The notes under the pieces: generated by a model
The model's database searches: none
Told to the model about the DNA's origin: nothing
What the model saw: the letters and a program-made list of their open reading frames with translations, nothing else
Program-made: the position numbers and the translations under genes
Part shown: positions 947 to 15,255 of the stretch, one piece after another
How the letters are laid out: every line of letters starts with the position of its first letter
How positions within the stretch are numbered: position 1 is the first letter of the stretch
Origin: Minisyncoccia bacterium
GTDB taxonomy: Bacteria; Patescibacteriota; Minisyncoccia; Phycocordibacterales; PALSA-1337
NCBI GenBank assembly: GCA_044228445.1
Contig: JBGAUV010000001.1
Location: 143,827 to 207,826 of the forward strand
Length of the DNA: 64,000 bases
Reading direction: 5' to 3'

Positions 947-971
947 GAATTTAGTAGTGATCCCAGTTACA

Positions 972-1012
972 AAAGACCGCCAGCACGATGTGCTTTGGCG
1001 GTTTTTCTTTTT
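972..1012 (+). terminator. Rho-independent terminator (copy 1 of a repeated element)
   Basis: aaagACCGCCAgcacgatgtgctTTGGCGGTttttcttttt; GC stem plus T-run; near-identical copy at 2995..3039. Confidence 0.6.
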
Positions 1013-1117
1013 AATAAATTTAATATTTTTACTTGATATAAATAATTTATTGTGTTATAATTTTGTTGGCTTTTGAAATTTAAAAAAACAACAAAACAAC
1101 GTTAAAGAGGAGGAAGT

Positions 1118-2994: not shown

Positions 2995-3039
2995 CAAAAA
3001 GACCGCCAGCACAATGTGCTTTGGCGGTTTTTCTTTTTA
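2995..3039 (+). terminator. Rho-independent terminator (copy 2; one mismatch versus 972..1012)
   Basis: aaagACCGCCAgcacaatgtgctTTGGCGGTttttcttttt immediately 3' of the ABC exporter. Confidence 0.6.
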
Positions 3040-3042
3040 TTT

Positions 3043-3087
3043 TGTGCGCCTAGTTGGAATCGAACCAACGACCCACTCCTTAAAAGG
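3043..3087. repeat. attR-like 45-bp direct repeat, identical to the 3' portion of tRNA-Lys at 14087..14131
   Basis: tgtgcgcctagttggaatcgaaccaacgacccactccttaaaagg matches the tRNA-Lys gene from the acceptor 3' end through the anticodon stem; sequence diverges right after. Confidence 0.85.
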
Positions 3088-3266
3088 AAACAGCAATAGC
3101 TGTTTTCTTAGGAAACGCTTATATTATCTTGCTTAAATTAACTTTCGGTTGAAAAAGAGCGGACCTTTGAACGACCTGTTTTCCAAATTTATAAACTTTA
3201 GAAAACTATTCGTTTTTAGACTAATTAACTTGTAAAATGTCCGACTGACGTAGACATTATACCAAG

Positions 3267-4199
3267 CTATCCAAATGATAGCTTGTCTATATCTTCTCCC
3301 ATGGATTCAGTTCTCATGGAACGAATGTATTTCATTGTCATTAAAATACTGGTATGACCCAACAGTTTTTGTATCTTGAAGGCGCTTACATTGTTCTCGT
3401 CGAGTTTGCAGGCAAAAGTATGTCGAAACATGTGGAGGTGTAGTTTGACCCCCGACTTTTTTATAAGAGCATTTGTCCAGTGTTTTAAACCTTGACGGCT
3501 CAATCCCTTGTCTCCTTTGTTGGAGGCTATCAAACATTCCGTTCGTAAGCCGAGCGCCTCCCTTGCTTCAAAGTACTCCTGTATGTGTAAGAGTAGAGTG
3601 GGGTGAATTTTGAGCTTCCTAGTAATCTTGGATTTCGAGGTTTCTCCTCTTATCGTCATGACAGCTCTATCCTTGTTAAAATCAGAAACACGTAGAGATA
3701 TAAATTCACCCTTTCTTATTCCCAGAAATAATAAAAGACTCACCATCATAGTATCCCGTCGCCGGATAAATGAGTTACTCGATTTTAGTACGATTGCGCT
3801 ATAAATTTTTTGAATATCAGAATCTTCTATTTTTCGAAAATCATCATACTTTACGCTAGGTGGTCTTATGTCATTTAAAGGATTAACAGATATACAACCT
3901 TTTTTCTCTAGCCAATTAAAAAATACATTCAATTTACTCCACTGCGTTTTAATAGTTGAGTTCTTTACTCCTTTCTTTATTTTATTTTTTCCGACTATTC
4001 TCGTTCGAGTCTGGATTCGTTTGAAAAACTCTATAAGCATTTCGGTGCTTAAAAACTTAAGTGTAGAAATTTCTGGCATTATTTTTAAAAAGAGATTGAA
4101 TACAGCTCTATAACCCCTGAGCGTTTCAGGGCTTAGTCGTGTAGAGTATTGCATTACATCCTCAAACTCATTAAAGAGTTTTCGTAGATCATTCTCCAT
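3267..4199 (-). CDS. Tyrosine-type site-specific recombinase/integrase
   Basis: C-terminal catalytic region ...HLHMFRHTFACKL...LLGHTSILMTMKYIRS (R..H..R..Y); N-terminal SAM-like core-binding domain. Confidence 0.9.
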   Translation of the reverse strand: MENDLRKLFNEFEDVMQYSTRLSPETLRGYRAVFNLFLKIMPEISTLKFLSTEMLIEFFKRIQTRTRIVGKNKIKKGVKNSTIKTQWSKLNVFFNWLEKKGCISVNPLNDIRPPSVKYDDFRKIEDSDIQKIYSAIVLKSSNSFIRRRDTMMVSLLLFLGIRKGEFISLRVSDFNKDRAVMTIRGETSKSKITRKLKIHPTLLLHIQEYFEAREALGLRTECLIASNKGDKGLSRQGLKHWTNALIKKSGVKLHLHMFRHTFACKLDENNVSAFKIQKLLGHTSILMTMKYIRSMRTESMGEDIDKLSFG

Positions 4200-4705
4200 A
4201 ACAAATAGAAAAACTAGGTCGGGGCGGTTATTTAATTGTGCTTACCTAGTTAGAGAAACAGTGATGGTGAGAGATGGTGAGTGTGTGGCGTGCAATGATT
4301 GGGCAAACGACTATGATTATTTGTAATTATGGTCTATCTAATTTTTCCGTCAATTCTATTTTTAATTCGCATTCGCAGTTCTCGGCTTAACTAAGCGATC
4401 TTTTTAAAATCAACAATGTGGATAACCCTGTGGAGATTATAGTTTTTGAAGCCAAGAAACAAATTTTCCAATTGCAAGTAAAGGGATGACCTACGTCGAA
4501 TGGTCAATATTGTTTTTGACAGACTGCGTATCGCTCATTCATTGCAAGATAGCGCACCAACTAATTTTAACAAAATGCTTCAGTGGAATAATAAAGAAAT
4601 AAAGAAGTTCGTTATAATCTAATCCAGACTTTTTGAGATGCCGCTCGGTAATTTTTATGCTGACGAAAGGAAAAGGTTAGTAGCTATAAATCTACGACAA
4701 AATCT

Positions 4706-4745
4706 TACTTTTTTTCACGAAAAAAGCCGCCAAGCAGGGTTGCTG
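4706..4745 (-). terminator. Rho-independent terminator (minus strand) 3' of the tautomerase-like gene
   Basis: Minus-strand read GCCGCCtcgcagcaaccctgcttGGCGGCttttttcgtgaaaaaaa; marks the left edge of the GC-rich cassette. Confidence 0.55.
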
Positions 4746-4783
4746 CGAGGCGGCGTGATTTTGCGTTGATGAACATTGCGAGA

Positions 4784-5170
4784 CTACTTGAAGTCCTCGG
4801 TGGTCGGCTTGTGTCGCCGGCCCATTCGAGGGTTGGTCCAGAAGCCCTGCTTGGGATCGAAGGGGAACACGAAGCATTCGACCATTGCCTTCGGAAAGTG
4901 CTCCTTGAGCGTTTTCCCGAGGCGTTCGGCCAAACGATTGCGAACCTCTGCGGTCCGTTCCGGCTTTTTGAATAGGCCGGTCACTTCGATGATGATCTCG
5001 GTTCCAAGACCAAACTTCATCATGTCGGGCGGAAAGAGAACTGTCATCGAATGCTTGCCTTTTAGGCCAAGCTCGGGGACACCCTCAACGGCTTTGACGA
5101 TGCCTTCGAAGACCTGGTTGAGCTTACGCTCAGTGGACTTCGGAAGGCACCAAATTTTGATTATGGGCAT
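4784..5170 (-). CDS. Tautomerase-family protein (tandem 4-OT/MIF-like halves, Pro1)
   Basis: Begins MPIIKIW...; second half IIEVTGLFKKPERTAEVRNRLAERLGKTLKEHF resembles a 4-oxalocrotonate tautomerase unit; ~55% GC. Confidence 0.5.
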   Translation of the reverse strand: MPIIKIWCLPKSTERKLNQVFEGIVKAVEGVPELGLKGKHSMTVLFPPDMMKFGLGTEIIIEVTGLFKKPERTAEVRNRLAERLGKTLKEHFPKAMVECFVFPFDPKQGFWTNPRMGRRHKPTTEDFK

Positions 5171-5174
5171 GCGG

Positions 5175-6032
5175 TTATCCCTTTTCTTTTGTTGATGGTT
5201 GAGGTTTCTTTGCCAGCCACTGACTCAAGTACCACGCTCCGAAAAGCGAGATAGCAACGCCAGTCCACTGAACAAATGTGAGGTGTTCTCCGAGCATGAA
5301 GTATGCCCCGATGATGACCGCAGGAGTTTCCCCCTGAGCTAAGACACTGGCTTCAGTTATTCGAAGGTTCTCAAAGGCCAGCATGTTTGCTATCCAATAG
5401 AGAAAACCTCCGACGAACGCAAAGCCGAGAAGCAGAACTGTAAGCTTGGGAGTCATGGTGCTGATCAAGGGCGTATTAACGCTTAAGATCAGTCCAAGTG
5501 TTCCCATGCCAATCCCTGCAAAAAACCCTTTCTGCAAAGATGTAGTTTTCGCTTTTGCGAACAACTCGTACAGGACGCCGCTCATTACTGTTCCGAAAAC
5601 ACTCCAGACGAATCCTTCCCATTGGAAGAGTCCACCCTTGCGTGCAATCAGCACTCCGCCGAGCATAAGCACAAGGCCGATGATTGAAGCCTCTGAAATC
5701 TTTCGTCCCAGAAATAAACTGATGGCGAAATTAATAAGAGGTGTCGCGGTAATGATGATGATCGTGGGACCTGCGCCCCAATGCCGGATACCCTGGAAAA
5801 GTCCCAGCGTTGCAAATGGCAGCGTGATTGCGATCAGCCAGGTGTATTTGTCCACCTTGCCGATAACTCCACGGAGTCCAATGAATGCCGCGATGGTAGT
5901 CATGAATCCACGGAATATCATGAGTTGTTCCGGAGTGAACATGTGAAGGACGTTGACGAACGGGAGGGCGAGCCCTGCTGTAAGCCAAATCCCAACTACT
6001 CCGAAAAGACCGATAAAAGTCTTTGGTTTCAA
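5175..6032 (-). CDS. EamA/DMT-family transporter (10 TM, drug/metabolite exporter)
   Basis: Two internally repeated 5-TM halves with glycine-rich helices typical of EamA; GC-rich. Confidence 0.8.
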   Translation of the reverse strand: MKPKTFIGLFGVVGIWLTAGLALPFVNVLHMFTPEQLMIFRGFMTTIAAFIGLRGVIGKVDKYTWLIAITLPFATLGLFQGIRHWGAGPTIIIITATPLINFAISLFLGRKISEASIIGLVLMLGGVLIARKGGLFQWEGFVWSVFGTVMSGVLYELFAKAKTTSLQKGFFAGIGMGTLGLILSVNTPLISTMTPKLTVLLLGFAFVGGFLYWIANMLAFENLRITEASVLAQGETPAVIIGAYFMLGEHLTFVQWTGVAISLFGAWYLSQWLAKKPQPSTKEKG

Positions 6033-6182
6033 GGTGCACCCTCCTTTCTTGGTTAAGCTTTAAGTCAATGAACTGCTAACTCGACCAAAATACCATGGAT
6101 TATTGACTATGGCAAGTTTTTATGCTAGTTTAAGCACAGAATTTCTGAACGAAAAAACAATCAAAAACGAAAGGACTTTGTC

Positions 6183-8054
6183 ATGAAAAAACAGCATTGG
6201 ATCATCCCGCTTCTCTTGGTGGCATTCATCAGGGCGGAATTCACCACAGTCCAGGCCTACTCGGCTTGGGACCAGTCGCAGGTCACGTATGATGCCTCTC
6301 GGGGTGTTTACGTCGATCACTACAAAATCCCTTTGGACAATTTCATTGCAGCAGGTGCGGCCAGTAACCCTGACCAAGCCAAAGAAATCGCTGCAATGTA
6401 TAACGGTCCTCGGGACATTCCGGCGAAGCGAAAGCTCGTCGTGAAGTTTCGGACAGACGTGTTCCGTAAGGAAGAGAACTACGCATGCGCAAGTATGATG
6501 TTTCTCACCAAGCCTGTCTCGAAGCGTCGTCTCGTTCTCGTGAACGTCGAACAGACAATTAACGAGAATATCCCAACTGACGATCGTCAGTATCGGGCCT
6601 GGCCTCATCTCGGACTTCTCTTTGTGGGCACAGCTGCTCAAGAAGAAGGCTGGGAGGTAGTCATGTGGGACGAGCTCGTCAAAGGCTTCGCGCCGATGGA
6701 GCAGCTCGTTCAGCCAGGTGACGTTGTTGGTTTCAGTTGTGTTGTGACAGGAATGGAACGTAGCATTGAGTTGGCTCGGAAAGCAAAGGAACTTGATGCT
6801 CGGTATGTGATCGTGGGAAATGATTCCGCGATCTTCCGAGCAAACCAGATTCTAGCGCTGCCCGACAAGCCGGTTGATGTTGTGTTCACTTCGAATAGCC
6901 TCACGGCCATTCGGAGATTCTTCCGAGAGATTGAAAACGCAAATCTCGAATCGCTGCAAATTCCTGGTGTCCAAGTGACATTGGGGCAAGTGCCGCAATC
7001 GAATGAGCGTGATCGTCTCTTGGTGGATCTTTCCATTCGCAAGCGCGACAAAGCTGAAGGACGGTTTGAAAACGACGACGTGTTCGTTGTTCCGAAGCTC
7101 GATCTCTATCCGCACTGGAATGAGGTCTGGTCCAACTACCGCGCGACGTTCGGACACAAGCACAGTAATCCTGATACGGTGAAGAACGGCATGAGCCTCT
7201 TCGCCCAGGGTTGCACCCGAACTCGTGGAAGTGATGTTTGCAGCTACTGCACCATCTACGGCGTTGCGGACATCCGCATGCCACAGAGGGAATACCTTCG
7301 TCGGACCGCTGAGGCCTACAAAGCTTTCGGCATCGACATGGTGTTCAACGTAACTGACAGCGTCTACGAGATGGGCGGTGTGGCTAAAGCGCTCCAGGAG
7401 CTCGGTATTACCTGGAATGCAATGACCATCTACGGTCGATCGCAGGGAATAACTCAGAACCCAGGTCTTCTCGAACAATGGCAACGAGTCGCAACAGAGC
7501 GACTCCTCGTCAACGTTGGGATGGACTCGGGAGACGACAAACTTCTGCGAGAAGGAGTTGTGAAATCCTCGATCAACAGAAAGAGGACTCGCCTTGAGGA
7601 AAACCAAGAGGCGGTGCGACTCATCCGGCAAGCCGGTGCGCATCTTCACTACTCACTCATCTTCGGAACGCCCGGCGAGACATTGGAGACCTGCGAAAGC
7701 AGTATCCGGTTTCTCGAGTGGACGATTGCGACACTCGGTCACCAGTTGGACATCTGCGAAACAGACATCTACTGGCTTAACTTCGGGTCACCTGCAAGCA
7801 AGGTGTTCCATGACTATTCGGAAGCGCAGCGACTTGCTGCGATGGCCGGAAAGTCGATCTCCAGAGAGGAGTGGTACGAAAACTTCGCTCGTCACCAAGA
7901 GGCACTCGTCGTGCCCGAGGCGACGGAAGAAGCCTGGTACCGCCACTTCACGAAGATCGATCTTGCGACTGCGCAGGCTTATAACCAGCGTTGCGTCGAG
8001 ATCATGGCTCGCCATAACGGCAGCATTCGAGGTCGTGCGTACAAGCCGATCTAA
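6183..8054 (+). CDS. B12-binding-domain radical-SAM-like enzyme with atypical cysteine motif and a signal-peptide-like N-terminus
   Basis: PHLGLLFVGTAAQEEGWEVVMWDE...GFSCVVTGMERSIELARKAKELDARYVIVGNDSA resembles the cobalamin-binding domain of class B rSAMs; cysteine cluster is C-x8-C-x2-C (GCTRTRGSDVCSYC) instead of CxxxCxxC; N-terminus MKKQHWIIPLLLVAFIRAEFTTVQA/YS looks like a Sec signal; ~55% GC. Confidence 0.5.
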   Translation: MKKQHWIIPLLLVAFIRAEFTTVQAYSAWDQSQVTYDASRGVYVDHYKIPLDNFIAAGAASNPDQAKEIAAMYNGPRDIPAKRKLVVKFRTDVFRKEENYACASMMFLTKPVSKRRLVLVNVEQTINENIPTDDRQYRAWPHLGLLFVGTAAQEEGWEVVMWDELVKGFAPMEQLVQPGDVVGFSCVVTGMERSIELARKAKELDARYVIVGNDSAIFRANQILALPDKPVDVVFTSNSLTAIRRFFREIENANLESLQIPGVQVTLGQVPQSNERDRLLVDLSIRKRDKAEGRFENDDVFVVPKLDLYPHWNEVWSNYRATFGHKHSNPDTVKNGMSLFAQGCTRTRGSDVCSYCTIYGVADIRMPQREYLRRTAEAYKAFGIDMVFNVTDSVYEMGGVAKALQELGITWNAMTIYGRSQGITQNPGLLEQWQRVATERLLVNVGMDSGDDKLLREGVVKSSINRKRTRLEENQEAVRLIRQAGAHLHYSLIFGTPGETLETCESSIRFLEWTIATLGHQLDICETDIYWLNFGSPASKVFHDYSEAQRLAAMAGKSISREEWYENFARHQEALVVPEATEEAWYRHFTKIDLATAQAYNQRCVEIMARHNGSIRGRAYKPI

Positions 8055-8077
8055 TCCATCAGTTCTTTAACTCAAAC

Positions 8078-8117
8078 ACAGTACTCCGCGAGGTGATCCC
8101 TCTCGGAGTATTTTTTC
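8078..8117 (+). terminator. Rho-independent terminator 3' of the rSAM-like gene
   Basis: tACTCCGcgaggtgatccctctCGGAGTAttttttctt; marks the right edge of the GC-rich cassette. Confidence 0.6.
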
Positions 8118-8639
8118 TTAAGCTTGTCATGCACGGTGTGACTATACAGTCTCGGGGAAAGAAGTGGGTGAGAAACTCGATATTAATCTTAGTTTCTCCT
8201 TTACACCCGTCATATACTCCAGATCTGTGAAATGACCATAATCTATTTTCCTGTTTTCTTAACTTCGTAACCATTGTGAATGGCCACTTTAGTTGTTCCT
8301 CCAATACCCAACCATGTTCCGACTATCAGTATAGCTAGACCACCTACGATTGAGATCATAAGTTCGCTCATGTGCAGGATTATAGAGGAAAGGAAATACA
8401 AGGGTACTGGTAAATATGTAAAATACATTGTATTATTTTAGAACAATTAAATATAGAAGTAGCCTAACCCCCCAAGCAATTGGCGGCATGGCGAAGAAGT
8501 CCTATCGAGCACAGAAACCCGTCACGGGTCGCTTGATAGGCCGTATAGGGAAACTTATACGAGAGGCTTCGAGCCTCTACCGTGGCGGATTTCTGTTCAC
8601 GCCTCGGATTACAAGCCCTATCAAGCTAAAAATATCAAT

Positions 8640-8876
8640 ATGTTTGGAAAAGATTTTGTGTGCCTCAATTGTGGTACTGTGGGGAAGCGTAAGTTGCAGG
8701 TAAGGGGTAATTTAGTATTAGAAATACTGCTTTGGTTCTTCTTTCTTATTCCAGGTATTATTTATTCAATATGGCGCCACGCCTCTACTAAACAGATATG
8801 CAAAGCTTGTGGTAGTCTTAATATGGTTCCAGTCGATTCTCCGAAAGGACAAGAGGTGGTGAAGAAAAATAAATAA
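8640..8876 (+). CDS. Zinc-ribbon membrane protein (two CxxC pairs flanking one TM helix)
   Basis: CLNCG...TM(LVLEILLWFFFLIPGIIYSIW)...CKACGS; stop abuts the thermonuclease start. Confidence 0.4.
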   Translation: MFGKDFVCLNCGTVGKRKLQVRGNLVLEILLWFFFLIPGIIYSIWRHASTKQICKACGSLNMVPVDSPKGQEVVKKNK

Positions 8877-8877
8877 C

Positions 8878-9738
8878 ATGAAAAAACTATTTTTGTTTGG
8901 GGCGAGTAGCGTCTTTGTCCTTTTTCTTACTGTACTTTTCTTTTCCTCGACACCTACGGAACAGGGGATTAAGGCACTGGAGAGTAAGTCTACACTTGTA
9001 AGCGAAGCGACAATTCCTTCCGTTGCACCAATTGCAGAAGGTCCGAAGGTTTATTCTGTGGTAAGTGTAATTGATGGTGATACTTTGAAAATAAGTATGA
9101 ATGGTAAAGAGGAGACTCTTCGTCTGATCGGTATTGATACCCCGGAGACAGTTGATCCACGAAAGACGGTGCAGTGTTTTGGAAAAGAAGCATCAAACAA
9201 AGCAAAGGAGTTGCTGGTCGGTAAGAGGGTTCGCATTGAAGTTGATCCTACACAAGGGGAACGAGATAAGTATGATCGTCTGCTCGTTTACATTCATCGT
9301 GAGGATGGGCTTTTTTACAACAAACATATGATCGAGCAGGGATATGCTCATGAGTATACTTACAACACCCCCTACATATATCAAGCTGAATTCAAAGCTG
9401 CTCAAGCTAGAGCTCGTACGAACCAGAAAGGACTATGGTCTCCAGCAACCTGTAATGGAGATACAACATCTAGCCCGATTGTTTTGACTCCTCCGCCCAC
9501 ACAAAGCCCCGCGGTAGCCCCTACACCTGCACCTACAGTATCACCTGTTCAAGAGCCTGCATCTGCTCCTCAATCAGTGGGGAAGTATTACACTTCTTCT
9601 TACGGCAGTTCCAAATACTACTACCCAGAAGCGTGTGGTGGTTGGAAAAGTCTCTCGCCGAAGTATTTAAAATCCTTTGACTCGCTAGAGGCGTTACTCG
9701 CCACATATTCGCGAACAAAAAGCCCTCAGTGTCAGTAG
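8878..9738 (+). CDS. Secreted/membrane-anchored thermonuclease (staphylococcal nuclease fold) with Pro-rich linker and C-terminal Cys-containing Ada-like metal-binding motif
   Basis: N-terminal TM/signal; SNase motifs VIDGDT and RLIGIDTPE; C-terminus KYYYPEAC...FDSLEALLATYSRTKSPQC. Confidence 0.85.
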   Translation: MKKLFLFGASSVFVLFLTVLFFSSTPTEQGIKALESKSTLVSEATIPSVAPIAEGPKVYSVVSVIDGDTLKISMNGKEETLRLIGIDTPETVDPRKTVQCFGKEASNKAKELLVGKRVRIEVDPTQGERDKYDRLLVYIHREDGLFYNKHMIEQGYAHEYTYNTPYIYQAEFKAAQARARTNQKGLWSPATCNGDTTSSPIVLTPPPTQSPAVAPTPAPTVSPVQEPASAPQSVGKYYTSSYGSSKYYYPEACGGWKSLSPKYLKSFDSLEALLATYSRTKSPQCQ

Positions 9739-9898
9739 GGCAGTATTCAGGATATTTCTGACCCATTAGTTTCTTTGTGAAGTCTTCATTCTGAAATAAC
9801 GCGCTTCGCATCCTGGATTCCCGAGTCTTTTAAAAAGATGACCCTTGAATTCCAGATTTAAGGACCATTCACGCAGGTGTGTGACCCTTTCTGGTTAC

Positions 9899-10417
9899 CT
9901 AGATTGGATCAGGTTCGTGTATTTTTCCCTGAACTCTTTCTCTCGCTTCTTCAAATGATTTGTTGTCAGTGGGAGGAGAGTATCGGACGATATCGTTATA
10001 TCGATCATGTATGTGTCTTGTCGCAGTTTCGAGTTCTTTATCGGTCATTGCTTTCGAAAACGTATCTCTAAGAGACCTTACATCCTGTTTGAGAGTCGTA
10101 AAATTCTTTGCGGCATTCAAGTGATCGTAATATTCCTTGAGTGGATTTAGTACGCTACCAACTGCGGCGACGACCGCAGAGATGACGCCTAGCCAAACGA
10201 CCCATTCAGGTGCATCTTTTATTCCAATATATGTACCAGATACAGCAGCAATAACAGCCGGAATCGTCTGGAATCTTGTGAGTCGTCGTCGTTGTTTATC
10301 CGCGATGACATGATGAGTTTCAGCAGTATAAACGCAATTTTGATATATCACCTCGCATTCTTCTGTGTATGTTTCTTTCATGATAGTGGAATTAATTCTC
10401 CGAATATTTTTCTCCAC
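9899..10417 (-). CDS. 2TM effector with SLATT-like architecture (predicted membrane-disrupting partner of the SMODS cyclase)
   Basis: Soluble N-terminal region, two adjacent TM helices (IPAVIAAVSGTYIGI / WVVWLGVISAVVAAVGSVL) and a conserved C-terminal helix; overlaps the upstream cyclase gene by 40 nt in an operon. Confidence 0.55.
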   Translation of the reverse strand: MEKNIRRINSTIMKETYTEECEVIYQNCVYTAETHHVIADKQRRRLTRFQTIPAVIAAVSGTYIGIKDAPEWVVWLGVISAVVAAVGSVLNPLKEYYDHLNAAKNFTTLKQDVRSLRDTFSKAMTDKELETATRHIHDRYNDIVRYSPPTDNKSFEEARERVQGKIHEPDPI

Positions 10418-11304
10418 GCTAGGTGTTTTCCCGCATCGGTTGAGGCGGTAAGAGCGTCACGACTATGGTATTTCAAATATTCCAATGCTTGTAAAACCTC
10501 TAGTTTTGTTGCAAGGTCTATTCGAATTACCGGAGAATTACTCCCTGGGATTGAGAGGTGATTATCCAGATAAGATTCGATATTGTGGATGAATCCAGCC
10601 ACAATTGCAGGGTACGTCACAAGTATAGCGTTCTTTTTGCAGCCTGCAATGATCTCGGGTACGAGCTTCGTGGCCATTATTTCAATTGGGAATGACTTGA
10701 GAGAAGGGAAGTATTCTCGCCGGATTGCCTTCATCATTTTTATTACTGGAGTAAGAATTCCACCCGTTTGGTTATTTACAGCCGAAATGTATTCGGCGTC
10801 ATGATCGTAGTCAGCCAATTCCCATGTTCCAAGGCTGTTTGGTATCCAGTAACCTCTACCTTTCGGACTATGAATAATTCCGTTTGGAGAATGTCCAATA
10901 TTATCGATGTATGCAGGTACAATTTCTACTTTGACGTTATTTGCATATTCGAAAGTGACGGTGGGGTGATCTTGTTGTGGTGACATGGCACCGTACCGTT
11001 CGCTTTCTCGCACGATTGAATGAACATGATCCATCGCCATTTGAGCGGTAACACCGCCTGGACCCCAACGATCAAATTGACCGAGTACAACCAGGATATC
11101 AATATCGAAAGCGTCGTCTTCTCGTGGCTGTATTCTCGTCTTTCGATAGTTGTGGAGAGAACCAATCAATTTGGTGTCTTTGATGTTTTGACCATTATTT
11201 TCAATAACGCCCCTGACAGCGTTGTGCTGCCGTGATATGGTTTCACTAAACGTGTCGGTCAGTTCAAGATTCGCTTTCAGTTTTAAAAAGGTATCAGTGA
11301 TCAT
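10378..11304 (-). CDS. SMODS/CD-NTase-like nucleotidyltransferase (cyclic oligonucleotide synthase, CBASS-type)
   Basis: Pol-beta NTase signature G-S-x14-D-x-D: LIGSLHNYRKTRIQPREDDAFDIDILVV; ~300 aa single domain; directly followed by the 2TM effector. Confidence 0.7.
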   Translation of the reverse strand: MITDTFLKLKANLELTDTFSETISRQHNAVRGVIENNGQNIKDTKLIGSLHNYRKTRIQPREDDAFDIDILVVLGQFDRWGPGGVTAQMAMDHVHSIVRESERYGAMSPQQDHPTVTFEYANNVKVEIVPAYIDNIGHSPNGIIHSPKGRGYWIPNSLGTWELADYDHDAEYISAVNNQTGGILTPVIKMMKAIRREYFPSLKSFPIEIMATKLVPEIIAGCKKNAILVTYPAIVAGFIHNIESYLDNHLSIPGSNSPVIRIDLATKLEVLQALEYLKYHSRDALTASTDAGKHLAWRKIFGELIPLS

Positions 11305-11305
11305 T

Positions 11306-11578
11306 TTAGAGGTAGTTTTTTAACCAAGTTACAGTATCGGAATCGATACTCTTCGTAGCCCAATCGCATTTTGTGATGTCAATTGCAATAAGCTTGTCAT
11401 TTGTATCTAAATGAAGCTTGGCCGCATCTCGCACTTGTCCGGCGGTGTAGGAGGTTTTTAAAAGCCAGACAGATTCGACGGGTCTTGCATAGCCACTATA
11501 GGTTTTAAGATGCTTCCATAGTTCGGAGTAGTCCTTTCCGGGCTTTCGAAGATCGTATGATATGAGTATTGTGTTCAT
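11306..11578 (-). CDS. Small alpha/beta protein with Cas2/VapD-like sequence pattern; first gene of the SMODS operon
   Basis: ILISYDLRKPGKDYSELWKHLKTYSGYARPVESVWLL follows the YD[IL]..(K/R)..L..yG.R...SV[FW] pattern of Cas2-fold proteins; stop is 2 nt before the cyclase start. Confidence 0.3.
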   Translation of the reverse strand: MNTILISYDLRKPGKDYSELWKHLKTYSGYARPVESVWLLKTSYTAGQVRDAAKLHLDTNDKLIAIDITKCDWATKSIDSDTVTWLKNYL

Positions 11579-11708
11579 GTGTTATGATTTGGTGAATAAA
11601 TAATCAAAGGGTGAGGTTCCCAACTGGGAAGATTACTCTCTGTTGAATATAGTTTATCAAAATGATTAATAATTTGTCAAATCACTTTGAAAAAGGTATG
11701 ATATCTAC

Positions 11709-12050
11709 ATGAAAAATGAATCAAATAAGGCTTCCTCAATAGGAGGGCAAATTAGACAGGCGCGCGAAGAAATGAATATGTCGCAATTGGACTTGGCTAA
11801 GGCGACAGGATTTGAGTCAGCCACTGCCATTTCTCTCATGGAAAGCGATCAGAGAAAAGTGACAATCGATACTTTACAGAAACTCGGGGATGTTCTTCAT
11901 AAAGATATAAAATATTTTCTTGGGGCAGAAGAAAAGCCAACAGTGACTACCGAGTTTGCGTTAAGAGCAGATCCTCATCTAAACAAAGAAGACAAAGAGG
12001 CACTTCTTCATCTTATTGATTTGGCTAAGAAGCGTAAAAATGGAAAATAA
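11709..12050 (+). CDS. XRE-family HTH transcriptional regulator (ImmR-like)
   Basis: IRQAREEMNMSQLDLAKATGFESATAISLMESDQRKVTIDTLQKLGDVL is a Cro/C1-type HTH. Confidence 0.8.
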   Translation: MKNESNKASSIGGQIRQAREEMNMSQLDLAKATGFESATAISLMESDQRKVTIDTLQKLGDVLHKDIKYFLGAEEKPTVTTEFALRADPHLNKEDKEALLHLIDLAKKRKNGK

Positions 12051-12540
12051 CATTGATGACCTCGGTCCTCGTAAAAAATTCGCAAAAGGTCTCGCAGAGA
12101 AGCTTTTAAAAGATGTTGGAATTACGGAAGTTCCTGTTTCGTTGCAGATAGTAATAGAGTATCTTCAAACCCAGTATGACCTCGATGTGCGAAAAGTCTC
12201 GTTGAGTAATGCCGTCTCCGGATTACTAGTAACTTGTAGAGACGTCGATGGAGAATATTCCACGATCATTTTTAATGAAAATCATCCTTGGTGCAGGAAG
12301 AGATTTACGATTGCACATGAAATTGGTCACCTATTGATGGGTCATACTTGTAATAAAAATGATCCCACAGCCACTTATAATGAAAAGGAAGCAAATTGCT
12401 TTGCGGCGGAACTTCTCGTGCCATGTAAGATTTTAAAAAAGACCTTTAAAACTGTCACTAAAATTCCTGACCTATCAAAACTTTTTAGGGTTAGTGCTGA
12501 AACGATGGGATATCGAATAATGGAATGTCGTCTAATTTAA
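12040..12540 (+). CDS. ImmA/IrrE-family metallopeptidase (COG2856; anti-repressor protease)
   Basis: HEIGHLLMGH (HExxH) and downstream EANCFAAELLVP; start chosen at internal ATG (MENNIDD) overlapping the XRE gene by 11 nt. Confidence 0.75.
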   Translation: MENNIDDLGPRKKFAKGLAEKLLKDVGITEVPVSLQIVIEYLQTQYDLDVRKVSLSNAVSGLLVTCRDVDGEYSTIIFNENHPWCRKRFTIAHEIGHLLMGHTCNKNDPTATYNEKEANCFAAELLVPCKILKKTFKTVTKIPDLSKLFRVSAETMGYRIMECRLI

Positions 12541-12542
12541 AG

Positions 12543-13043
12543 TTAATCAGTAGAGATAATCTTAGGCATCAGTCTCGCCCATTTTTTCGTACTGCTCTCT
12601 TTTGATGCTGGAATCATCATTAGCTCAGGCTTTTCAAAACTAGTTGATTCTTCTATAAAAAATAAAGCCGAGTCCCATTTCATAATGGTATTTGCTGCTG
12701 CAATTCGTTCGCTTTGTGTGGTGGAGCGGACCTCACCGAAGCTGGTTATCTGCTTTCCTTTGACTATATCAACCAATTCATCCGTAAGAAGGCGGTGGCG
12801 CTCCCTAAGTGCAGTCAAGCGTGCCTCCCTTGTCTGTCTACCCACTAATTCAATATTTTCTTTTCGAACTTTGGATACGAGACGTGAGACATAGTGCCAA
12901 TCAAGAGTACCACCATTTACATTTCTATATCCCACAAGGTAGAGCTGAACCCGTAGTTTTTGGACCGAGATAAGTGGATGAAGAGCCAACTCATCTCTTA
13001 TTGTACTTTTTATTCCGTCTTCTACTTCTGGTTGTTTTCTCAT
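12543..13043 (-). CDS. Hypothetical protein (island cargo, immediately downstream of the integrase gene, overlapping it by 4 nt)
   Basis: ORF only; no recognisable motif. Confidence 0.3.
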   Translation of the reverse strand: MRKQPEVEDGIKSTIRDELALHPLISVQKLRVQLYLVGYRNVNGGTLDWHYVSRLVSKVRKENIELVGRQTREARLTALRERHRLLTDELVDIVKGKQITSFGEVRSTTQSERIAAANTIMKWDSALFFIEESTSFEKPELMMIPASKESSTKKWARLMPKIISTD

Positions 13044-13969
13044 TTAAGTTCGTGGTTATTCGCGGTTATTAATGGCGTAATGTCGTTGAGAGGGTGCTTT
13101 ACCATCTGCGACCTCAGGTGTTCTGCACTTGCTGCCAAGTAGATCGTTGTAGTCTTTATATCACTATGACCCATCATTTTTGAGAGGGAATAGATGTCAC
13201 AGCCTCCTTCGAGCATTAAGGTGGCGAAGGTGTGTCGTAGCTTATGAACGCTGAACGCTGTCCCTGAAGCCTGCCGCATCTGCGCCACCAGTCTTTTTAA
13301 ACCATTTGCAGTGAATCCTGTATCTCTTCGAAGGGAAGAAAAGAATTCTGGATTTACTTTATTGAGTCTCTTTCTTTCCTCCACGTACTTCTTCAGACTT
13401 TGAGCAAGGGTGTAGCTTATTGGCACGATCCGGTCTTTCGCTCCTTTGCCTTGCCTCACAAAGAGAGTGAGATTGTCCAGATCGATATCTGTATATTTTA
13501 AATTCAAGAGTTCCTGCTTACGGAGACCAGCAAAAATGAAGGTTGCGAATATGGCGTGGTTTCTATAGCGAAGGAATTTATACTCATAGGGGTAGTTATA
13601 GACTATCTCGAGAAGCCTGAGAGTGCTTTGCTGTGAGAGTTTGGGAGGTAACCGTTTCTCCATCTTTGGTTTTTCAATATTCAAGATGGGATTTTTCTCC
13701 ATGTAGCCTTGCTTTACGCACCAGCGAAAGAAAACTAGAAGTGATTTGTGGTAGACGATATAAGTATTTACAGTCCACTTCCGCTCTGTACGGCCGCGAT
13801 AAAATAAAGCTCGTATATTCTCTTCATTCACATCATTTAAATTCGTGATTCCTGAAAACTTACTGAAGCACCTCGTTACATATCTGTATCTCCGTATGGT
13901 GTCTTTGGAATAACCTCGGATTGATAGGGAGTAGTCACAGAATTTCTGCGACAAAATTTCAATATCCAT
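13040..13969 (-). CDS. Tyrosine-type site-specific recombinase/integrase (tRNA-proximal)
   Basis: ...HKLRHTFATLMLEGGCDIYSLSKMMGHSDIKTTTIYL... (R..H..R..Y); 5' end lies 118 bp from the tRNA-Lys 3' end. Confidence 0.9.
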   Translation of the reverse strand: MDIEILSQKFCDYSLSIRGYSKDTIRRYRYVTRCFSKFSGITNLNDVNEENIRALFYRGRTERKWTVNTYIVYHKSLLVFFRWCVKQGYMEKNPILNIEKPKMEKRLPPKLSQQSTLRLLEIVYNYPYEYKFLRYRNHAIFATFIFAGLRKQELLNLKYTDIDLDNLTLFVRQGKGAKDRIVPISYTLAQSLKKYVEERKRLNKVNPEFFSSLRRDTGFTANGLKRLVAQMRQASGTAFSVHKLRHTFATLMLEGGCDIYSLSKMMGHSDIKTTTIYLAASAEHLRSQMVKHPLNDITPLITANNHELK

Positions 13970-14087
13970 GTTTTTTCTCGACGAATACTTATCCCCAGTT
14001 TATTTTGACCCTACGGCCTGTTCACCGCAGGAGGTGGTCGTTCAAAATCTCTCTTTTTCCGAATCAGCCCTAGAAATATAACGAATG

Positions 14088-14160
14088 TGCGCCTAGTTGG
14101 AATCGAACCAACGACCCACTCCTTAAAAGGGAGATGCTCTACCAACTGAGCTATAGGCGC
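14088..14160 (-). tRNA. tRNA-Lys (anticodon UUU)
   Basis: Reverse complement GCGCCTATAGCTCAGTTGGTAGAGCATCTCCCTTTTAAGGAGTGGGTCGTTGGTTCGATTCCAACTAGGCGCA; anticodon loop CUUUUAA; good acceptor/D/T arms. Confidence 0.9.
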
Positions 14161-14336
14161 ATTTAATTTACTTACTAACTTTAAACCATACTACCATAGT
14201 TTGTTCTGGTCCTACCAAAACAGCTATAGGCGCATTTATTTATTTGTAAAAATACAATTTAACTTCTATAACCGTCGCTTGTCTACCAAAACAGCTACAG
14301 GCGCATTGAAACACAACAAAAAAGAATATACCTTTT

Positions 14337-14698
14337 TTATAACGGTAAGTCAAAAGCAAATGTACCCGCACCACTTACTATAAGACAAAAAGATATAATA
14401 AGTAGAATTATATAATAATTAACTCCATCAGTAAGAAATGCTTTCTCTTTTAACTTACCGTAGAGCTTTATACCAAAATATATAAATGAAACTATACCTG
14501 CTAGTTGAACAAATAGACCAAAAATGAAGAGTAAACCTAGTACACCAAATAGGATTGAATATACTGCTTCAGAACTCTTGGTTTTTACTTTCCATGTTTT
14601 ATATGCCCAATGAATAAAGATAAAACCTAGTGTTAAACGTAGTAAAAATGGGGCAAGTTGTTCAAAAGCTAATAATCCTGGAAGTAGTGAAAGCATGT
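14337..14698 (-). CDS. DoxX-family membrane protein
   Basis: LRLTLGFIFIHWAYKTWK... is DoxX-like with 3-4 TM; start placed at the internal Met to avoid overlap with the divergent neighbour. Confidence 0.45.
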
Positions 14699-14731
14699 TG
14701 ATGTTTATAAAATCTAATATATAGTAGGGAT

Positions 14732-15214: not shown

Positions 15215-15255
15215 TTATATTGACATTGTATATACATTGTATATACTTATATTAT

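What the first reader, a model, noticed from the sequence alone, without database searches (positions are those of the whole stretch)
3043..14160. tRNA-Lys-targeted ~11 kb integrative island with dual integrases and mosaic base composition
A complete tRNA-Lys(UUU) gene (14088..14160, minus) lies at one end and a 45-bp exact copy of its 3' end (3043..3087) at the other. Tyrosine recombinase genes sit just inside both ends (3267..4199 and 13040..13969). An XRE/ImmA pair (11709..12540) next to the integrase matches the ICE/prophage immunity-switch layout. Cargo ranges from ~35% GC (integrases, XRE/ImmA) through ~43% (nuclease, SMODS operon) to ~55% (4700..8100), so it was assembled from several donors. 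Carrying a second, unrelated integrase is unusual; it may mark tandem accretion of two elements.
Basis: seen in the sequence. Interest (0 to 1): 0.7.

Follow-up and report, generated by a model that had tools for sequence, protein, structure and literature searches.

The report
Two-recombinase defence island at tRNA-Lys
An 11-kb mobile island carrying anti-virus defence genes sits in a lysine tRNA gene of an ultra-small (Patescibacteria) bacterium, and its two integrase genes plus a small structured RNA turn out to be the shared trademark of a widespread family of such islands that I could not find described.

Summary
tRNA-Lys(UUU) lies at 14087-14160 (-). An exact 45-bp copy of its 3' half lies at 3043-3087, and the two copies bracket 11,043 bp. 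Contigs from two other metagenomes match the flanks at 99.95-100% and join them through a single 45-bp core, so the empty site exists.

- The two 27%-identical Xer-like recombinases do not mark tandem accretion. They are a co-inherited pair found in 77 related loci, mostly on one strand, and all 77 copies of each keep the catalytic residues.
- In Patescibacteria the pair brackets 1-9 kb of cargo between a tRNA and a 27-77-nt repeat. In Bacteroidota and other phyla the two genes are adjacent, separated by about 340-440 bp that contain a tRNA 3' half. The window's rebuilt attP (340 bp) aligns with that spacer along its whole length.
- The XRE/ImmA pair fits CapH/CapP regulators of the neighbouring type I CBASS better than an element immunity switch.
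- The mosaic composition is real. The radical-SAM gene is 89% identical in DNA to a chromosomal gene of a 53%-GC contig.
- New: a LOOT RNA (Rfam RF03000) at 8461-8578 recurs inside the related Patescibacteria islands.

How the two recombinases act together is inferred, not shown.

The parts
3043..3087 (-). attR core: displaced copy of the 3' half of tRNA-Lys, running from the anticodon loop to one base past the tRNA's 3' end
   Evidence: Exact 45-bp repeat of 14086-14130. It is the junction in the empty-site contigs L003 and L005.
3169..3184 (-). Left conserved att-arm motif (GGAAAACAGGTCGTTC on the minus strand)
   Evidence: AACAGGYC occurs only 3 times in 64 kb, and 2 of those are at the island ends. 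The block is conserved across 22 attP or spacer sequences.
3257..3265 (-). Conserved TGnyATAAT block (extended -10-like) just after the int1 stop, pointing outward through attR
   Evidence: Conserved column block in the attP alignment. That it acts as a promoter is an inference.
3267..4199 (-). int1: distal Xer-like tyrosine recombinase (310 aa), transcribed toward attR
   Evidence: Pfam Phage_integrase plus a SAM-like N-terminal domain. The nearest NCBIfam models are XerA, XerD and XerC, all below their cutoffs. R, H, R, H and Y are invariant in 77 family members.
4784..5170 (-). ORF of 128 aa with no family match (coding status uncertain)
   Evidence: No hit in Pfam, NCBIfam, PHROGs or PADLOC.
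5175..6032 (-). EamA-family transporter (cargo, high-GC block)
   Evidence: Pfam EamA, E=4.5e-9. The block 4701-8100 is 51.6% GC.
6183..8054 (+). B12-binding radical SAM enzyme (cargo captured from a higher-GC genome)
   Evidence: Pfam Radical_SAM and B12-binding. Window 6521-8057 is 89% identical in DNA to a gene set among housekeeping genes on the 53%-GC contig L092.
8429..8597 (+). LOOT RNA gene: conserved -10 (8429-8437), Rfam LOOT match (8461-8578), extra closing helix (8518-8525 with 8582-8589) and T-tract (8590-8597)
   Evidence: RF03000 scores 76 bits against a gathering score of 46.4. The RNA is found in 32 further related loci, always downstream of int2. The promoter and 3' extension are conserved. 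The extra helix is 99.4% paired, with compensatory changes in 6 of 8 pairs.
8640..8876 (+). 78-aa zinc-ribbon plus transmembrane protein, the first gene after LOOT
   Evidence: ORF. The CxxC...CxxC and hydrophobic segments can be read from the sequence. A homologue follows LOOT in L149.
8878..9738 (+). Membrane-anchored or secreted staphylococcal-nuclease-like protein
   Evidence: Pfam SNase, E=4.8e-24. PADLOC model C3a212, described as 'SNc+LTD', E=4e-46. Homologues lie after LOOT in L006 and L099.
9899..10417 (-). CBASS effector: SLATT two-transmembrane protein
   Evidence: Pfam SLATT_4. PADLOC 2TM effector models.
10378..11304 (-). CBASS CD-NTase (SMODS cyclase)
   Evidence: Pfam SMODS. PADLOC oligonucleotide-cyclase, E=1.5e-30.
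11306..11578 (-). 90-aa protein, first gene of the CBASS operon, function unknown
   Evidence: phrog_1090, E=1e-22, unknown function. A homologue lies in the cargo of L026.
11709..12540 (+). CapH-like HTH (11709-12050) and CapP-like M78 peptidase (12016-12540), divergent from the CBASS operon
   Evidence: PADLOC capH E=1e-9 and capP E=1.5e-23. Overlapping divergent promoter-like sites at 11651-11702. The layout matches the definition in 10.1101/2022.04.27.489752.
12543..13043 (-). 166-aa protein whose start overlaps the int2 stop; no family
   Evidence: No hits. The only relative found is a weak one at the same position in L008.
13040..13969 (-). int2: tRNA-proximal Xer-like tyrosine recombinase (309 aa), transcribed away from the tRNA
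   Evidence: Pfam. 2679 homologues, the top ones 74-84% identical. R, K, H, R, H and Y are invariant in 77 members. The nearest solved structures are XerA and XerD.
14009..14047 (-). Right conserved att-arm block (TTTTGAACGACCACCTCC..GTGAACAGGCCGTAGGG on the minus strand)
14086..14130 (-). attL core, within the functional tRNA gene
14087..14160 (-). tRNA-Lys(UUU), the integration target
   Evidence: ARAGORN and Rfam. The gene is intact in the empty-site contigs.

Best explanation
Window 3088-14130 is an 11,043-bp integrative island. It is neither conjugative nor phage-like. It is inserted in the 3' half of tRNA-Lys(UUU) of a Patescibacteria (CPR) genome.

It belongs to a widespread family, spanning several phyla, whose mobility core is a co-inherited pair of Xer-like tyrosine recombinases. 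These have two domains and no arm-binding domain.

In the free, circular form the two genes would lie head to tail around a spacer of about 340 bp: int1, then attP, then int2. That spacer holds a copy of the tRNA 3' half flanked by conserved AAACAGGTCG-type motifs. Recombination with the chromosomal tRNA most probably crosses over in the 7-nt anticodon loop, between the CTCC and GGAG stem arms. It splits the pair. int2 ends up about 117 bp downstream of the regenerated tRNA. int1 ends up about 180 bp inside the displaced 45-bp tRNA fragment. Everything between them is cargo.

Here the cargo is:
- a type I CBASS (CD-NTase plus a SLATT two-transmembrane effector) with CapH/CapP-like regulators;
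- a LOOT small RNA followed by a zinc-ribbon membrane protein and an exported SNase-type nuclease;
- a radical-SAM and EamA block captured from a higher-GC genome.

Shown: the insertion polymorphism, the repeats, the co-occurrence and co-divergence of the pair, its intact catalytic residues, the full-length alignment of the rebuilt attP with natural int1-int2 spacers, the defence-rich cargo of relatives, and the LOOT association.

Inferred: that both recombinases act together (as XerC/XerD or CcrA/CcrB do), the crossover position, that splitting the pair changes int2 expression, and that the element is still mobile.
For: - Empty site: L003 and L005 join window ..14086 to 3087.. through one core at 99.95-100% flank identity, with an intact tRNA.
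- The repeat is exact and no such match appeared in 100 shuffles.
- Nothing points to a phage or a conjugative element. Pfam, PHROGs and NCBIfam find no capsid, terminase, relaxase, T4SS or replication gene among the ORFs scanned. No int2 relative turned up in the plasmid or phage collections at E<=1e-30, and none closer than 25% identity in IMG/VR.
- The pair travels together. An int1-like gene lies in 53 of 82 genome loci, on the same strand in 51. Across 77 paired loci Mantel r=0.68, with 0 of 2000 permutations as high. R, H, R, H and Y are invariant in both families.
- Seventeen further distinct DR-bounded elements share the tRNA - int2 - cargo - int1 - repeat layout. In eleven of them int1 lies within about 180-360 bp of the repeat. 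One is a minimal 3.4-kb element that is little more than the two genes.
- 27 loci have int1 and int2 adjacent, 337-440 bp apart. That spacer carries a tRNA 3' half and aligns block for block with the attP rebuilt from the window (340 bp) and from five other split islands. The small contig L100 shows int1 (68% identical) - attP - int2 (80%) with a core that differs from the window's at three bases.
- The closest relative, L093 (int2 84%), sits at the same syntenic tRNA-Lys in a related host but carries different cargo.
- Cargo of 13 relatives: Gabija, AbiL, retron or DRT-type reverse transcriptases, type III restriction-modification, IetA, AriA, Cap15.
- Host: the nearest named MurE relatives are Pacebacteria and 'Patescibacteria group' bacteria.
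Against: - No circular form or attP junction of this particular island was seen. No metagenome contig carrying int2 had a terminal overlap, and the island-bearing Logan contigs simply break inside the core.
- DR-bounded elements with int2 only exist (L021, L026, L067), so int1 may not be strictly needed, or those elements are decayed.
- int1 evolves much faster than int2 (mean pairwise distance 0.55 against 0.34). Its beta-hairpin Lys column is K in only 54 of 77 members.
- The adjacent layout occurs in large chromosomes with no second core within 10 kb. A simple circle-to-integrated model does not explain this. It needs tandem arrays or nesting inside larger elements.
- Neither recombinase has an arm-binding domain that would explain the conserved flanking motifs.
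Confidence: 0.62

Rival explanations
1. int2 alone is the integrase of a classical single-integrase tRNA island. int1 is conserved for a different job. Candidates are multimer resolution of the circular form (as Cre or XerCD-cer do for plasmids), directionality control, or regulation at the conserved AAACAGGTCG motifs.
For: int2 holds the classical position next to the tRNA and is far better conserved (58-84% against 33-68% identity to the window). int2-only elements flanked by exact repeats exist (L021, L026, L067). 29 of 82 genome loci show int2 without int1, although many of those contigs are short. Direct copies of one motif on both att arms would suit an accessory DNA-binding protein.
Against: int1 keeps R, H, R, H and Y in 77 of 77 members. 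In eleven of the 17 DR-bounded relatives it lies within about 180-360 bp of the distal repeat, and it is on the same strand as int2 in 51 of 53 genome loci. It co-diverges with int2. No excisionase-like gene was recognised that would leave int1 free of a role in recombination.
Confidence: 0.28
2. Tandem accretion: two unrelated elements, each with its own integrase, inserted one after the other at tRNA-Lys and later fused.
For: The two integrases are only 27% identical. The composition is mosaic. Tandem arrays do occur in this family, for example two core-plus-int2 units in L059.
Against: No internal att remnant; the best match is 24 of 45 bases, which is not distinguishable from chance. int1 lies at the far end and is transcribed toward attR, not next to an internal att. 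The same int2...int1 bracket recurs in 17 or more independent islands with unrelated cargo. The empty site loses the whole 11,043 bp as one unit.
Confidence: 0.04
3. The XRE/M78 pair is the island's own ImmR/ImmA-type induction switch controlling excision, as in ICEBs1 and some prophages, rather than a CBASS regulator.
For: The two systems are homologous and both respond to DNA damage. The pair lies only about 500 bp from int2. The peptidase lacks the C-terminal part of canonical CapP: 174 aa, matching profile positions 5-153 of 242.
Against: The pair converges on unk166 and int2 and shares no promoter region with them. It shares a divergent promoter region with the CBASS operon, which is the defining CapH/CapP layout. 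Its best PADLOC hits are capH and capP. Related islands mostly lack such a pair.
Confidence: 0.12
4. The island is an immobile fossil. The empty-site contigs show the ancestral state of a sister lineage, not ongoing excision or integration.
For: No attP junction or circular contig was found. The element has no recognisable transfer or replication genes.
Against: The repeats are 100% identical over 45 bp. All ORFs are intact. Occupied and empty genomes are 99.95-100% identical in the flanks, which implies a very recent gain or loss. A related host carries a different island at the same site.
Confidence: 0.2

Closest known systems
Classical tRNA-targeting genomic islands and integrative elements (P4-like or anticodon-loop class integrases, Islander/TIGER-type islands)
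   Same: The integrase lies next to an intact tRNA. The element supplies a replacement 3' half. The displaced 3' fragment forms a 45-bp direct repeat at the far end. The empty site is precise.
   Different: Two paralogous recombinases lacking arm-binding domains sit at opposite ends. No excisionase was recognised. Conserved non-coding arm motifs and a conserved small RNA are present.
Tycheposons of Prochlorococcus (10.1101/2020.12.28.424599)
   Same: Small cargo-carrying elements at tRNA genes of streamlined genomes that lack conjugation. A full tRNA lies at the proximal end and a partial tRNA at the distal end. The integrase faces inward at one end. Tandem arrays occur. Cargo is adaptive or defensive.
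   Different: As defined, tycheposons have one integrase plus an optional replication module of primase or helicase type. This family has a second recombinase at the distal end, no replication module was detected, and it carries LOOT RNA. Whether the integrases are related was not tested.
XerC/XerD (and XerA) chromosome-dimer resolution recombinases
   Same: These are the closest sequence and structure relatives. Both are two-domain 'simple' tyrosine recombinases. A pair of paralogues suggests a hetero-tetramer in which each catalyses one pair of strand exchanges.
   Different: Scores fall far below the equivalog cutoffs (116-184 bits against 220-335). The genes are carried by a mobile element. 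The target is a tRNA gene, not dif. Joint action is inferred only.
Two-recombinase mobile elements: SCCmec CcrA/CcrB, Tn554 TnpA/TnpB, Prevotella MTnPi1-3 with two tandem non-homologous integrases (PMC4755523), and GInt, SE or RIT multi-recombinase elements
   Same: More than one site-specific recombinase gene is carried by one element and may be jointly required. In MTnPi1, loss of the second integrase gene coincided with failure to excise.
   Different: In all of those the recombinase genes stay adjacent at one end. In the Patescibacteria islands integration places them at opposite ends. CcrAB are serine recombinases. RIT and GInt elements have three recombinases. No sequence comparison with the MTnPi integrases was possible here.
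SSV-type archaeal integrases, where attP lies inside int so that integration splits the gene (reviewed in PMC8371274, from my own knowledge)
   Same: Integration physically disrupts the recombinase expression unit and excision restores it.
   Different: Here attP lies between two complete genes, so neither coding sequence is broken. Only their linkage, and any shared transcription, is interrupted.
Type I CBASS with CapH/CapP regulation (10.1101/2022.04.27.489752)
   Same: A CD-NTase with a two-transmembrane effector. An HTH gene and an M78 peptidase gene lie upstream on the opposite strand and share the promoter region.
   Different: The peptidase is short (174 aa) and lacks the C-terminal domain of canonical CapP. 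An extra 90-aa gene of unknown function heads the operon.
LOOT RNA motif (Rfam RF03000, typed as sRNA)
   Same: The full-length match scores 76 bits against a gathering score of 46.4.
   Different: Here it has a defined genomic setting, inside two-recombinase tRNA islands. A conserved -10 lies upstream. An extra covarying 8-bp closing helix and a T-tract lie beyond the Rfam model. I could not retrieve the original description of the motif.

Membership tests
tRNA-integrated genomic island (site-specific integrative element) | Direct repeat made of the tRNA 3' part at both ends, with an intact tRNA at one end | tested here: met
   45-bp exact repeat at 3043-3087 and 14086-14130. The tRNA is intact.
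tRNA-integrated genomic island (site-specific integrative element) | A precise empty site in related genomes | tested here: met
   L003 and L005.
tRNA-integrated genomic island (site-specific integrative element) | An excised circular intermediate (attP junction) | not testable with these tools
No circular contig was found among 80 metagenome loci. The L100 junction belongs to a relative, not to this island.
Integrative conjugative or mobilizable element (ICE/IME) | A relaxase and/or T4SS and coupling protein within the element | tested here: not met
   Pfam and NCBIfam scans of the island ORFs tested found none.
Prophage or phage satellite (PICI-like) | Capsid, terminase, replication or packaging genes | tested here: not met
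   Among the seven island proteins scanned, the only PHROGs hits are integrase families and phrog_1090, of unknown function. There are no close relatives in the phage collection or IMG/VR.
Tycheposon | An inward-facing site-specific integrase at the tRNA-proximal end and a partial tRNA at the distal end | tested here: met
   int2 is transcribed away from the tRNA into the island, and attR is a partial tRNA.
Tycheposon | The tycheposon-lineage integrase and shared hallmark (replication) genes | tested here: inconclusive
   No primase, helicase or polymerase was detected. The integrase lineage was not compared because no tycheposon sequences were at hand.
XerC/XerD/XerA equivalogs | A score above the curated NCBIfam cutoff | tested here: not met
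   int2 scores 184, 175 and 163 bits against cutoffs of 220, 335 and 330. int1 scores 116, 111 and 113 bits.
Catalytically competent tyrosine recombinase (both proteins) | The R..K..H-x-x-R..H/W..Y active-site residues | tested here: met
   All are present in the window proteins (alignment). R, H, R, H and Y are invariant in 77 of 77 members of each family. K is invariant in int2 and present in 54 of 77 int1 members.
Heteromeric two-recombinase integrase (XerCD- or CcrAB-like mode of action) | Both proteins are required and bind different half-sites | not testable with these tools
   Only co-occurrence, co-divergence and fixed geometry are shown.
Type I CBASS | A CD-NTase plus an effector, without Cap2/Cap3 or HORMA/TRIP13 accessory genes | tested here: met
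   SMODS cyclase and a SLATT two-transmembrane effector. No other Cap models hit the neighbouring ORFs.
CapH/CapP regulator module | An HTH gene and a Zn-metallopeptidase (PF06114) gene directly upstream of the defence operon, on the opposite strand, sharing its promoter region | tested here: met
   The definition was read.
CapH/CapP regulator module | The C-terminal (GAF-like) domain of CapP | tested here: not met
   The protein is 174 aa and matches capP profile positions 5-153 of 242 only.
ImmR/ImmA-int module of ICEBs1-type elements | The repressor, the protease and int are co-oriented, with the repressor controlling the excision genes from a shared divergent promoter | tested here: not met
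   The pair converges on int2 and diverges from CBASS.
LOOT RNA (RF03000) | A covariance-model score at or above the gathering threshold | tested here: met
   76 bits against 46.4, with the full model 1-121 matched.

The most novel reading that the evidence does not exclude
The island represents an undescribed class of integrative element. Its integrase would be an obligate pair of Xer-like recombinases whose genes flank attP, so that integration itself separates them to the two ends of the element. int2 would then fall under read-through from the tRNA and lose the conserved outward-facing promoter that follows int1, giving a built-in topological switch between the free and the integrated state. 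The recombination core (CTTTTAA-GGAG of tRNA-Lys) is identical in Patescibacteria- and Bacteroidota-type att cores, which would explain why the family crosses phyla. The orphan LOOT RNA would be an element-encoded small RNA that belongs to the Patescibacteria branch of the family. It would control the membrane or secreted cargo gene that always follows it, or the element's own maintenance.
Probability: 0.33. Interest if true: 0.85.

Novelty: new variant of a known kind. Interest (0 to 1): 0.68.

Why it matters
- Patescibacteria (CPR) are regarded as poor in mobile elements and defence systems, and they are very hard to manipulate genetically (my own knowledge). This family looks like a dedicated small vehicle that moves defence systems between them. 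Those seen include CBASS, Gabija, retron-type reverse transcriptases, AbiL and type III restriction-modification. At the same tRNA-Lys site, related hosts carry different cargo.
- A site-specific recombinase pair that targets a near-universal tRNA-Lys core and occurs from Saccharibacteria to Bacteroidota and Ignavibacteria is a candidate integration tool for organisms with no genetic tools.
- Mechanistically, it would add a tyrosine-recombinase counterpart to the CcrAB type of two-protein integrase. It has an unusual geometry in which integration separates the two genes.
- It gives a concrete genomic context, and testable hypotheses, to LOOT RNA. I found no functional or contextual information for this structured RNA in the literature I could search.
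- For annotation: lone 'XerC/XerD-like' genes next to tRNAs in CPR genomes, possibly including the 'Cand' subgroup of simple tyrosine recombinases in PMC8138268, should not be assumed to be chromosome-dimer resolvases. That link was not tested.

Tried and rejected
- Exact-protein look-ups of the ABC transporter, int1 and the radical-SAM protein found nothing on record. The Fpg protein worked instead.
- I looked for internal att remnants that would support tandem accretion. There are none; the best match is 24 of 45 bases.
- I looked for a conserved accessory gene, such as an excisionase, directly after int2. The downstream ORFs of 45 loci fall into small unrelated clusters. The 166-aa ORF has one weak relative.
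- I searched for int2 relatives on sequenced plasmids and phages by tblastn at E<=1e-30 and found none. IMG/VR gave only relatives at 24-25% identity. A phage or plasmid origin is therefore not supported.
- I looked for circular contigs among 80 metagenome loci by terminal overlap and found none.
- I tested whether LOOT also occurs in the loci where int1 and int2 are adjacent. It was not found with my model R1 or with Rfam's own model in 7 such loci.
- I considered that the adjacent int1-int2 loci might be housekeeping Xer genes of Bacteroidota. I rejected this because the spacer holds a tRNA 3' half that varies with lineage, and because the flanks in Saprospiraceae are mobile-element-like: a coupling protein and ArdC on one side, SIR2-HerA and a type I restriction-modification system on the other.
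- Literature searches for a described two-recombinase-bracketed tRNA island, for CPR integrative elements and for LOOT found no match. The supplement that describes LOOT is not held.

Full report
**1. The observation**

ARAGORN finds tRNA-Lys(ttt) at 14087-14160 on the minus strand, and Rfam agrees. The repeat finder and a pattern search show that 3043-3087 and 14086-14130 are identical over 45 bp. These are the only two matches in the window with up to 3 mismatches allowed, and none appeared in 100 shuffles. The repeat runs from the last base of the anticodon stem, through the anticodon loop, to one base past the tRNA's 3' end.

Host DNA outside the island is 34.1% GC and the island is 44.0%. 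By block: int1 35.9%, capH/capP 37.9%, int2 42.3%, CBASS and SNase 42.7%, and 4701-8100 51.6%.

**2. It is a real insertion**

An exact-protein look-up of the neighbouring Fpg protein returned Logan contigs from other metagenomes. L003 (SRR30521505) and L005 (SRR30521485) match the window at 99.95-100% on both sides. They pass directly from window 14086 to window 3087 with a single 45-bp core, so they lack exactly 11,043 bp. Their tRNA-Lys is intact.

Contigs that carry the island (L001 and L002, from DRR736418 and DRR736411) and one flank contig (L004) end 30 bases inside the core. That is what a short repeat or a polymorphism does to a de Bruijn graph.

The host is a Patescibacterium. Its MurE-like protein has its nearest named relatives, at 57-59% identity, in 'Candidatus Pacebacteria' and 'Patescibacteria group' bacteria. 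The record is an NCBI contig of 371 kb.

**3. The two integrases are a pair, not an accident**

int1 and int2 are 27% identical. Both are 'simple' two-domain recombinases. Their nearest NCBIfam models are XerA, XerC and XerD, all far below cutoff, and their nearest solved structures are XerA and XerD.

int2 has 2679 database homologues, and the best 120 are 74-84% identical. A scan of one genome per species found 157 relatives. They occur in Saccharibacteria, Paceibacteria, Nomurabacteria and other Patescibacteria. They also occur in Saprospiraceae, Chitinophagaceae, Mucilaginibacter (including a complete genome), Flavobacteriaceae and Ignavibacteria, and in a few MAGs labelled Gammaproteobacteria, Simkania or Terriglobales.

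tblastn with every island protein against these loci showed that the cargo is not shared but int1 is. An int1-type gene lies near the int2-type gene in 53 of 82 loci, on the same strand in 51. Over 77 non-redundant paired loci, including metagenome contigs, the pairwise distance matrices of the two proteins correlate (Mantel r=0.68, 0 of 2000 permutations as high). Both families keep the catalytic Arg, His, Arg, His and Tyr in every member. The island interior holds nothing resembling a third att copy. Tandem accretion is therefore not supported.

**4. Two layouts that are one structure**

- *Split layout (type A).* This is found in Patescibacteria and is the window's layout: tRNA, about 120 bp, int2, 1-9 kb of cargo, int1, then a 27-77-nt repeat of the tRNA 3' part. 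In most islands int1 ends about 200 bp before the repeat. Besides the window, eight genome loci (L006, L008, L010, L018, L028, L030, L037, L045) and seven metagenome loci (L105, L118, L120, L140, L142, L149, L156) show it at tRNA-Lys or tRNA-Thr, and L056 and L060 show it too. L142 is a 3.4-kb minimal element that is little more than the two genes.
- *Adjacent layout (type B).* This is found in Bacteroidota, Ignavibacteria and others. The genes lie next to each other, int1 then int2, 337-440 bp apart in 27 loci. The spacer carries a tRNA 3' half, in a few loci a whole tRNA, whose sequence follows the lineage.

I rebuilt the attP that excision of the window's island would create: rc(3088-3266) + core + rc(13970-14085), 340 bp. 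I did the same for five other split islands. These rebuilt sequences align along their whole length with the natural spacers. The shared blocks are:
- TGnyATAAT just after the int1 stop;
- ggnaAACAGGTCgt;
- an A/T-rich block;
- the tRNA half;
- tttgaaCGACCAccTCc...gAAcAGGtc.t.GGct.

In the window the 8-mer AACAGGYC occurs three times in 64 kb, and two of these are at the island's ends. A 2.7-kb metagenome contig (L100) shows int1 (68% identical), attP and int2 (80%) with a core that differs from the window's at three bases.

The simplest reading is that the free form of the element carries int1-attP-int2 and that integration at the tRNA separates the two genes.

The identity block begins at the anticodon loop. 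The attP left arm keeps only a (T/C)TCC that mirrors GGAG. From established knowledge of tRNA-targeting integrases (the anticodon-loop class), I infer that the crossover falls in the 7-nt loop CTTTTAA. That segment is identical in Patescibacteria- and Bacteroidota-type cores, which may explain the breadth of hosts.

**5. What remains unexplained about the family**

The adjacent layout sits in large chromosomes with no second core within 10 kb. In Saprospiraceae its flanks look like mobile elements on both sides: a coupling protein, ArdC and RadC on one side, and SIR2-HerA, a type I restriction-modification system and an HTH_17 protein on the other. Tandem arrays occur (L059). So these loci may be junctions between large tandem elements, or modules nested in larger elements. 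I could not decide between these.

int2-only elements bounded by repeats exist. int1 also diverges faster than int2. The rival reading, that int2 is the integrase and int1 has another role, therefore stays open at about 0.28.

No gene is conserved directly after int2. No relative was found on sequenced plasmids or phages at E<=1e-30, and none closer than 25% identity in IMG/VR. No circular contig was recovered.

**6. Cargo of this island**

- *CBASS.* 9899-11578 (minus strand) holds a 90-aa protein of unknown function, a CD-NTase and a SLATT two-transmembrane effector. This makes a type I CBASS.
- *Its regulators.* The XRE and M78 genes lie directly upstream on the other strand, with overlapping divergent promoter-like sites at 11651-11702. 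Their best PADLOC models are capH and capP. This is the layout that defines CapH/CapP. The peptidase is short and lacks the C-terminal domain. The pair converges on int2, unlike the immR-immA-int arrangement of ICEBs1. Related islands seldom have such a pair. I therefore read it as a CBASS regulator (about 0.7) rather than the element's switch.
- *LOOT module.* 8429-9738 (plus strand) holds the LOOT RNA, a 78-aa zinc-ribbon membrane protein and an exported SNase-type nuclease. PADLOC describes the model the nuclease matches as 'SNc+LTD'.
- *High-GC block.* 4784-8054 holds an unknown ORF, an EamA transporter and a B12-binding radical SAM enzyme. The radical-SAM gene is 89% identical in DNA to a gene that sits among pilin, LigA, GatCA, RF and FtsEX genes on the 53%-GC contig L092. 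That context looks Patescibacteria-like. So the mosaic composition reflects recent capture from another lineage.

Cargo of 13 related islands (79 ORFs) is dominated by defence genes: Gabija GajA and GajB, AbiL, retron or DRT-type reverse transcriptases, type III restriction-modification, IetA with a subtilase, AriA, Cap15 and RmrA. The closest relative (int2 84% identical; L093) sits at the same syntenic tRNA-Lys (S20-RuvA-Mur-amidase-Fpg-SpoU) in a related host. It carries a reverse-transcriptase-based cargo instead.

**7. LOOT RNA**

Rfam's LOOT model (RF03000) matches 8461-8578 at 76 bits against a gathering score of 46.4. The same RNA passed the Rfam threshold in seven of the ten related loci I scanned first. 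A covariance model built from those hits found it in 32 further loci.

- It is present in 12 of 15 split-layout genome loci and in none of the 36 loci where int1 lies upstream of int2.
- Rfam's own model also finds none in seven adjacent-layout loci.
- It always lies downstream of int2, inside the element.

An extended alignment shows a conserved TGnTATAAT about 35 nt upstream (window 8429-8437) and conservation beyond the Rfam model's 3' end. An 8-bp helix pairs window 8518-8525 with 8582-8589 and is followed by a T-tract. Its cells are 99.4% paired, with compensatory changes at 6 of 8 pairs, against 34-54% paired when the partner is slid by 1-3 columns. This helix competes with a hairpin in the Rfam consensus.

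In most loci an ORF starts about 60-80 nt after the Rfam match. It belongs to many unrelated families. Reading the sequences, it nearly always encodes a transmembrane, signal-peptide or zinc-ribbon-plus-transmembrane protein.

LOOT is thus either a stand-alone small RNA with its own promoter and terminator or a leader for exported cargo proteins. Its function is unknown. I could not retrieve the original description. The only comment I found is that it shows unusually many 'cross-covariations'.

**8. Comparison with what is known**

The thing works like a classical tRNA-targeting island, and in lifestyle it is most like tycheposons. It fails the tests for an ICE, an IME, a prophage or a satellite.

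The paired recombinases recall three precedents: XerC/XerD, CcrA/CcrB, and the tandem non-homologous integrases of Prevotella mobilizable transposons, where both were suspected to be needed. In those systems the genes stay together.

The separation of the recombination genes by integration has a conceptual parallel in SSV-type archaeal integrases, a comparison from my own knowledge.

Eight literature searches found no description of this bracket architecture or of a context for LOOT. The library is incomplete, so prior description cannot be excluded.

**9. Verdict**

The island is a new member of a family that is a new variant of a known kind of element. Interest is 0.68. The island itself is ordinary in principle. 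Three things would surprise a specialist and are directly testable: the conserved split recombinase pair, its spread across phyla, and its link to an orphan RNA in CPR bacteria.

Noticed in passing
window 8429-8597 (+); also L006, L008, L010, L028, L029, L030, L037, L043, L045, L051, L060, L093 and 18 metagenome loci: LOOT RNA (RF03000) lies inside the island and recurs in the cargo of related two-recombinase islands. A conserved -10 lies upstream. An extra covarying 8-bp helix and a T-tract lie beyond the Rfam model. The next ORF almost always encodes a membrane or secreted protein.
   Followed up: yes
window 20119-22454, next to tRNA-Arg(gcg) 22454-22529: A 2.3-kb segment is absent from the otherwise identical contig L003, where about 206 bp of other sequence replaces it. 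It is present in L004. It includes a 269-aa ORF and a 291-aa ORF (the latter with a Kre9_KNH-like domain), and a 37-39-nt repeat at about 20082-20118 and 21339-21374. This is a second strain-variable, tRNA-adjacent segment.
   Followed up: partly
window 30880-32531: A large serine recombinase gene (30942-32531, minus strand; Resolvase, Recombinase and Zn_ribbon_recom domains) overlaps the 3' end of tRNA-His (30880-30953, plus strand). This suggests another integrated element to its right. No flanking repeat was identified.
   Followed up: partly
window 46773-49755: A reverse transcriptase (48721-49755) lies next to a 114-nt repeat pair at 47767-47880 and 48243-48356 (87% identical). This is the pattern of a diversity-generating retroelement's template and variable repeats. 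An M78-peptidase-domain protein lies at 44879-46111.
   Followed up: no
window 14212-14241 and 14283-14312: Two degenerate copies of the first about 23 nt of tRNA-Lys lie just upstream of the tRNA at 73- and 71-nt spacing. They are also present in the empty-site contigs, so they are not part of the island. Short repeats of similar length lie upstream of int2 in several related loci (L013, L033, L036, L042, L043, L047, L056), and several of them match the D-arm of the tRNA. Their origin is unexplained.
   Followed up: partly
window 971-1013 and 2997-3039: A 43-nt terminator-like hairpin is duplicated at 98% identity on either side of the ABC-transporter gene 1118-2983. The second copy abuts attR and probably served as the tRNA-Lys terminator before insertion.
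   Followed up: no
window 15220-15821: A RelB-like antitoxin and a ParE/YafQ-like toxin pair lies in the host flank between SpoU and Fpg. It is present in the empty-site contigs too.
   Followed up: no
window 60272-60366: ARAGORN calls a 95-nt tRNA-Thr(tgt) here, but the Rfam tRNA model does not report it at gathering threshold. It may contain an intron or be a false call.
   Followed up: no
L087 (Saprospiraceae JADLHT010000035) 7198-20483: Here the adjacent int1-int2 pair is flanked by a TrwB/TraG-like coupling protein, ArdC and RadC on one side. On the other side lie a tRNA-Lys on the opposite strand, a SIR2 plus DUF87 (HerA-like) pair and a type I restriction-modification system. In Bacteroidota the pair therefore sits inside or between larger mobile elements.
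   Followed up: partly
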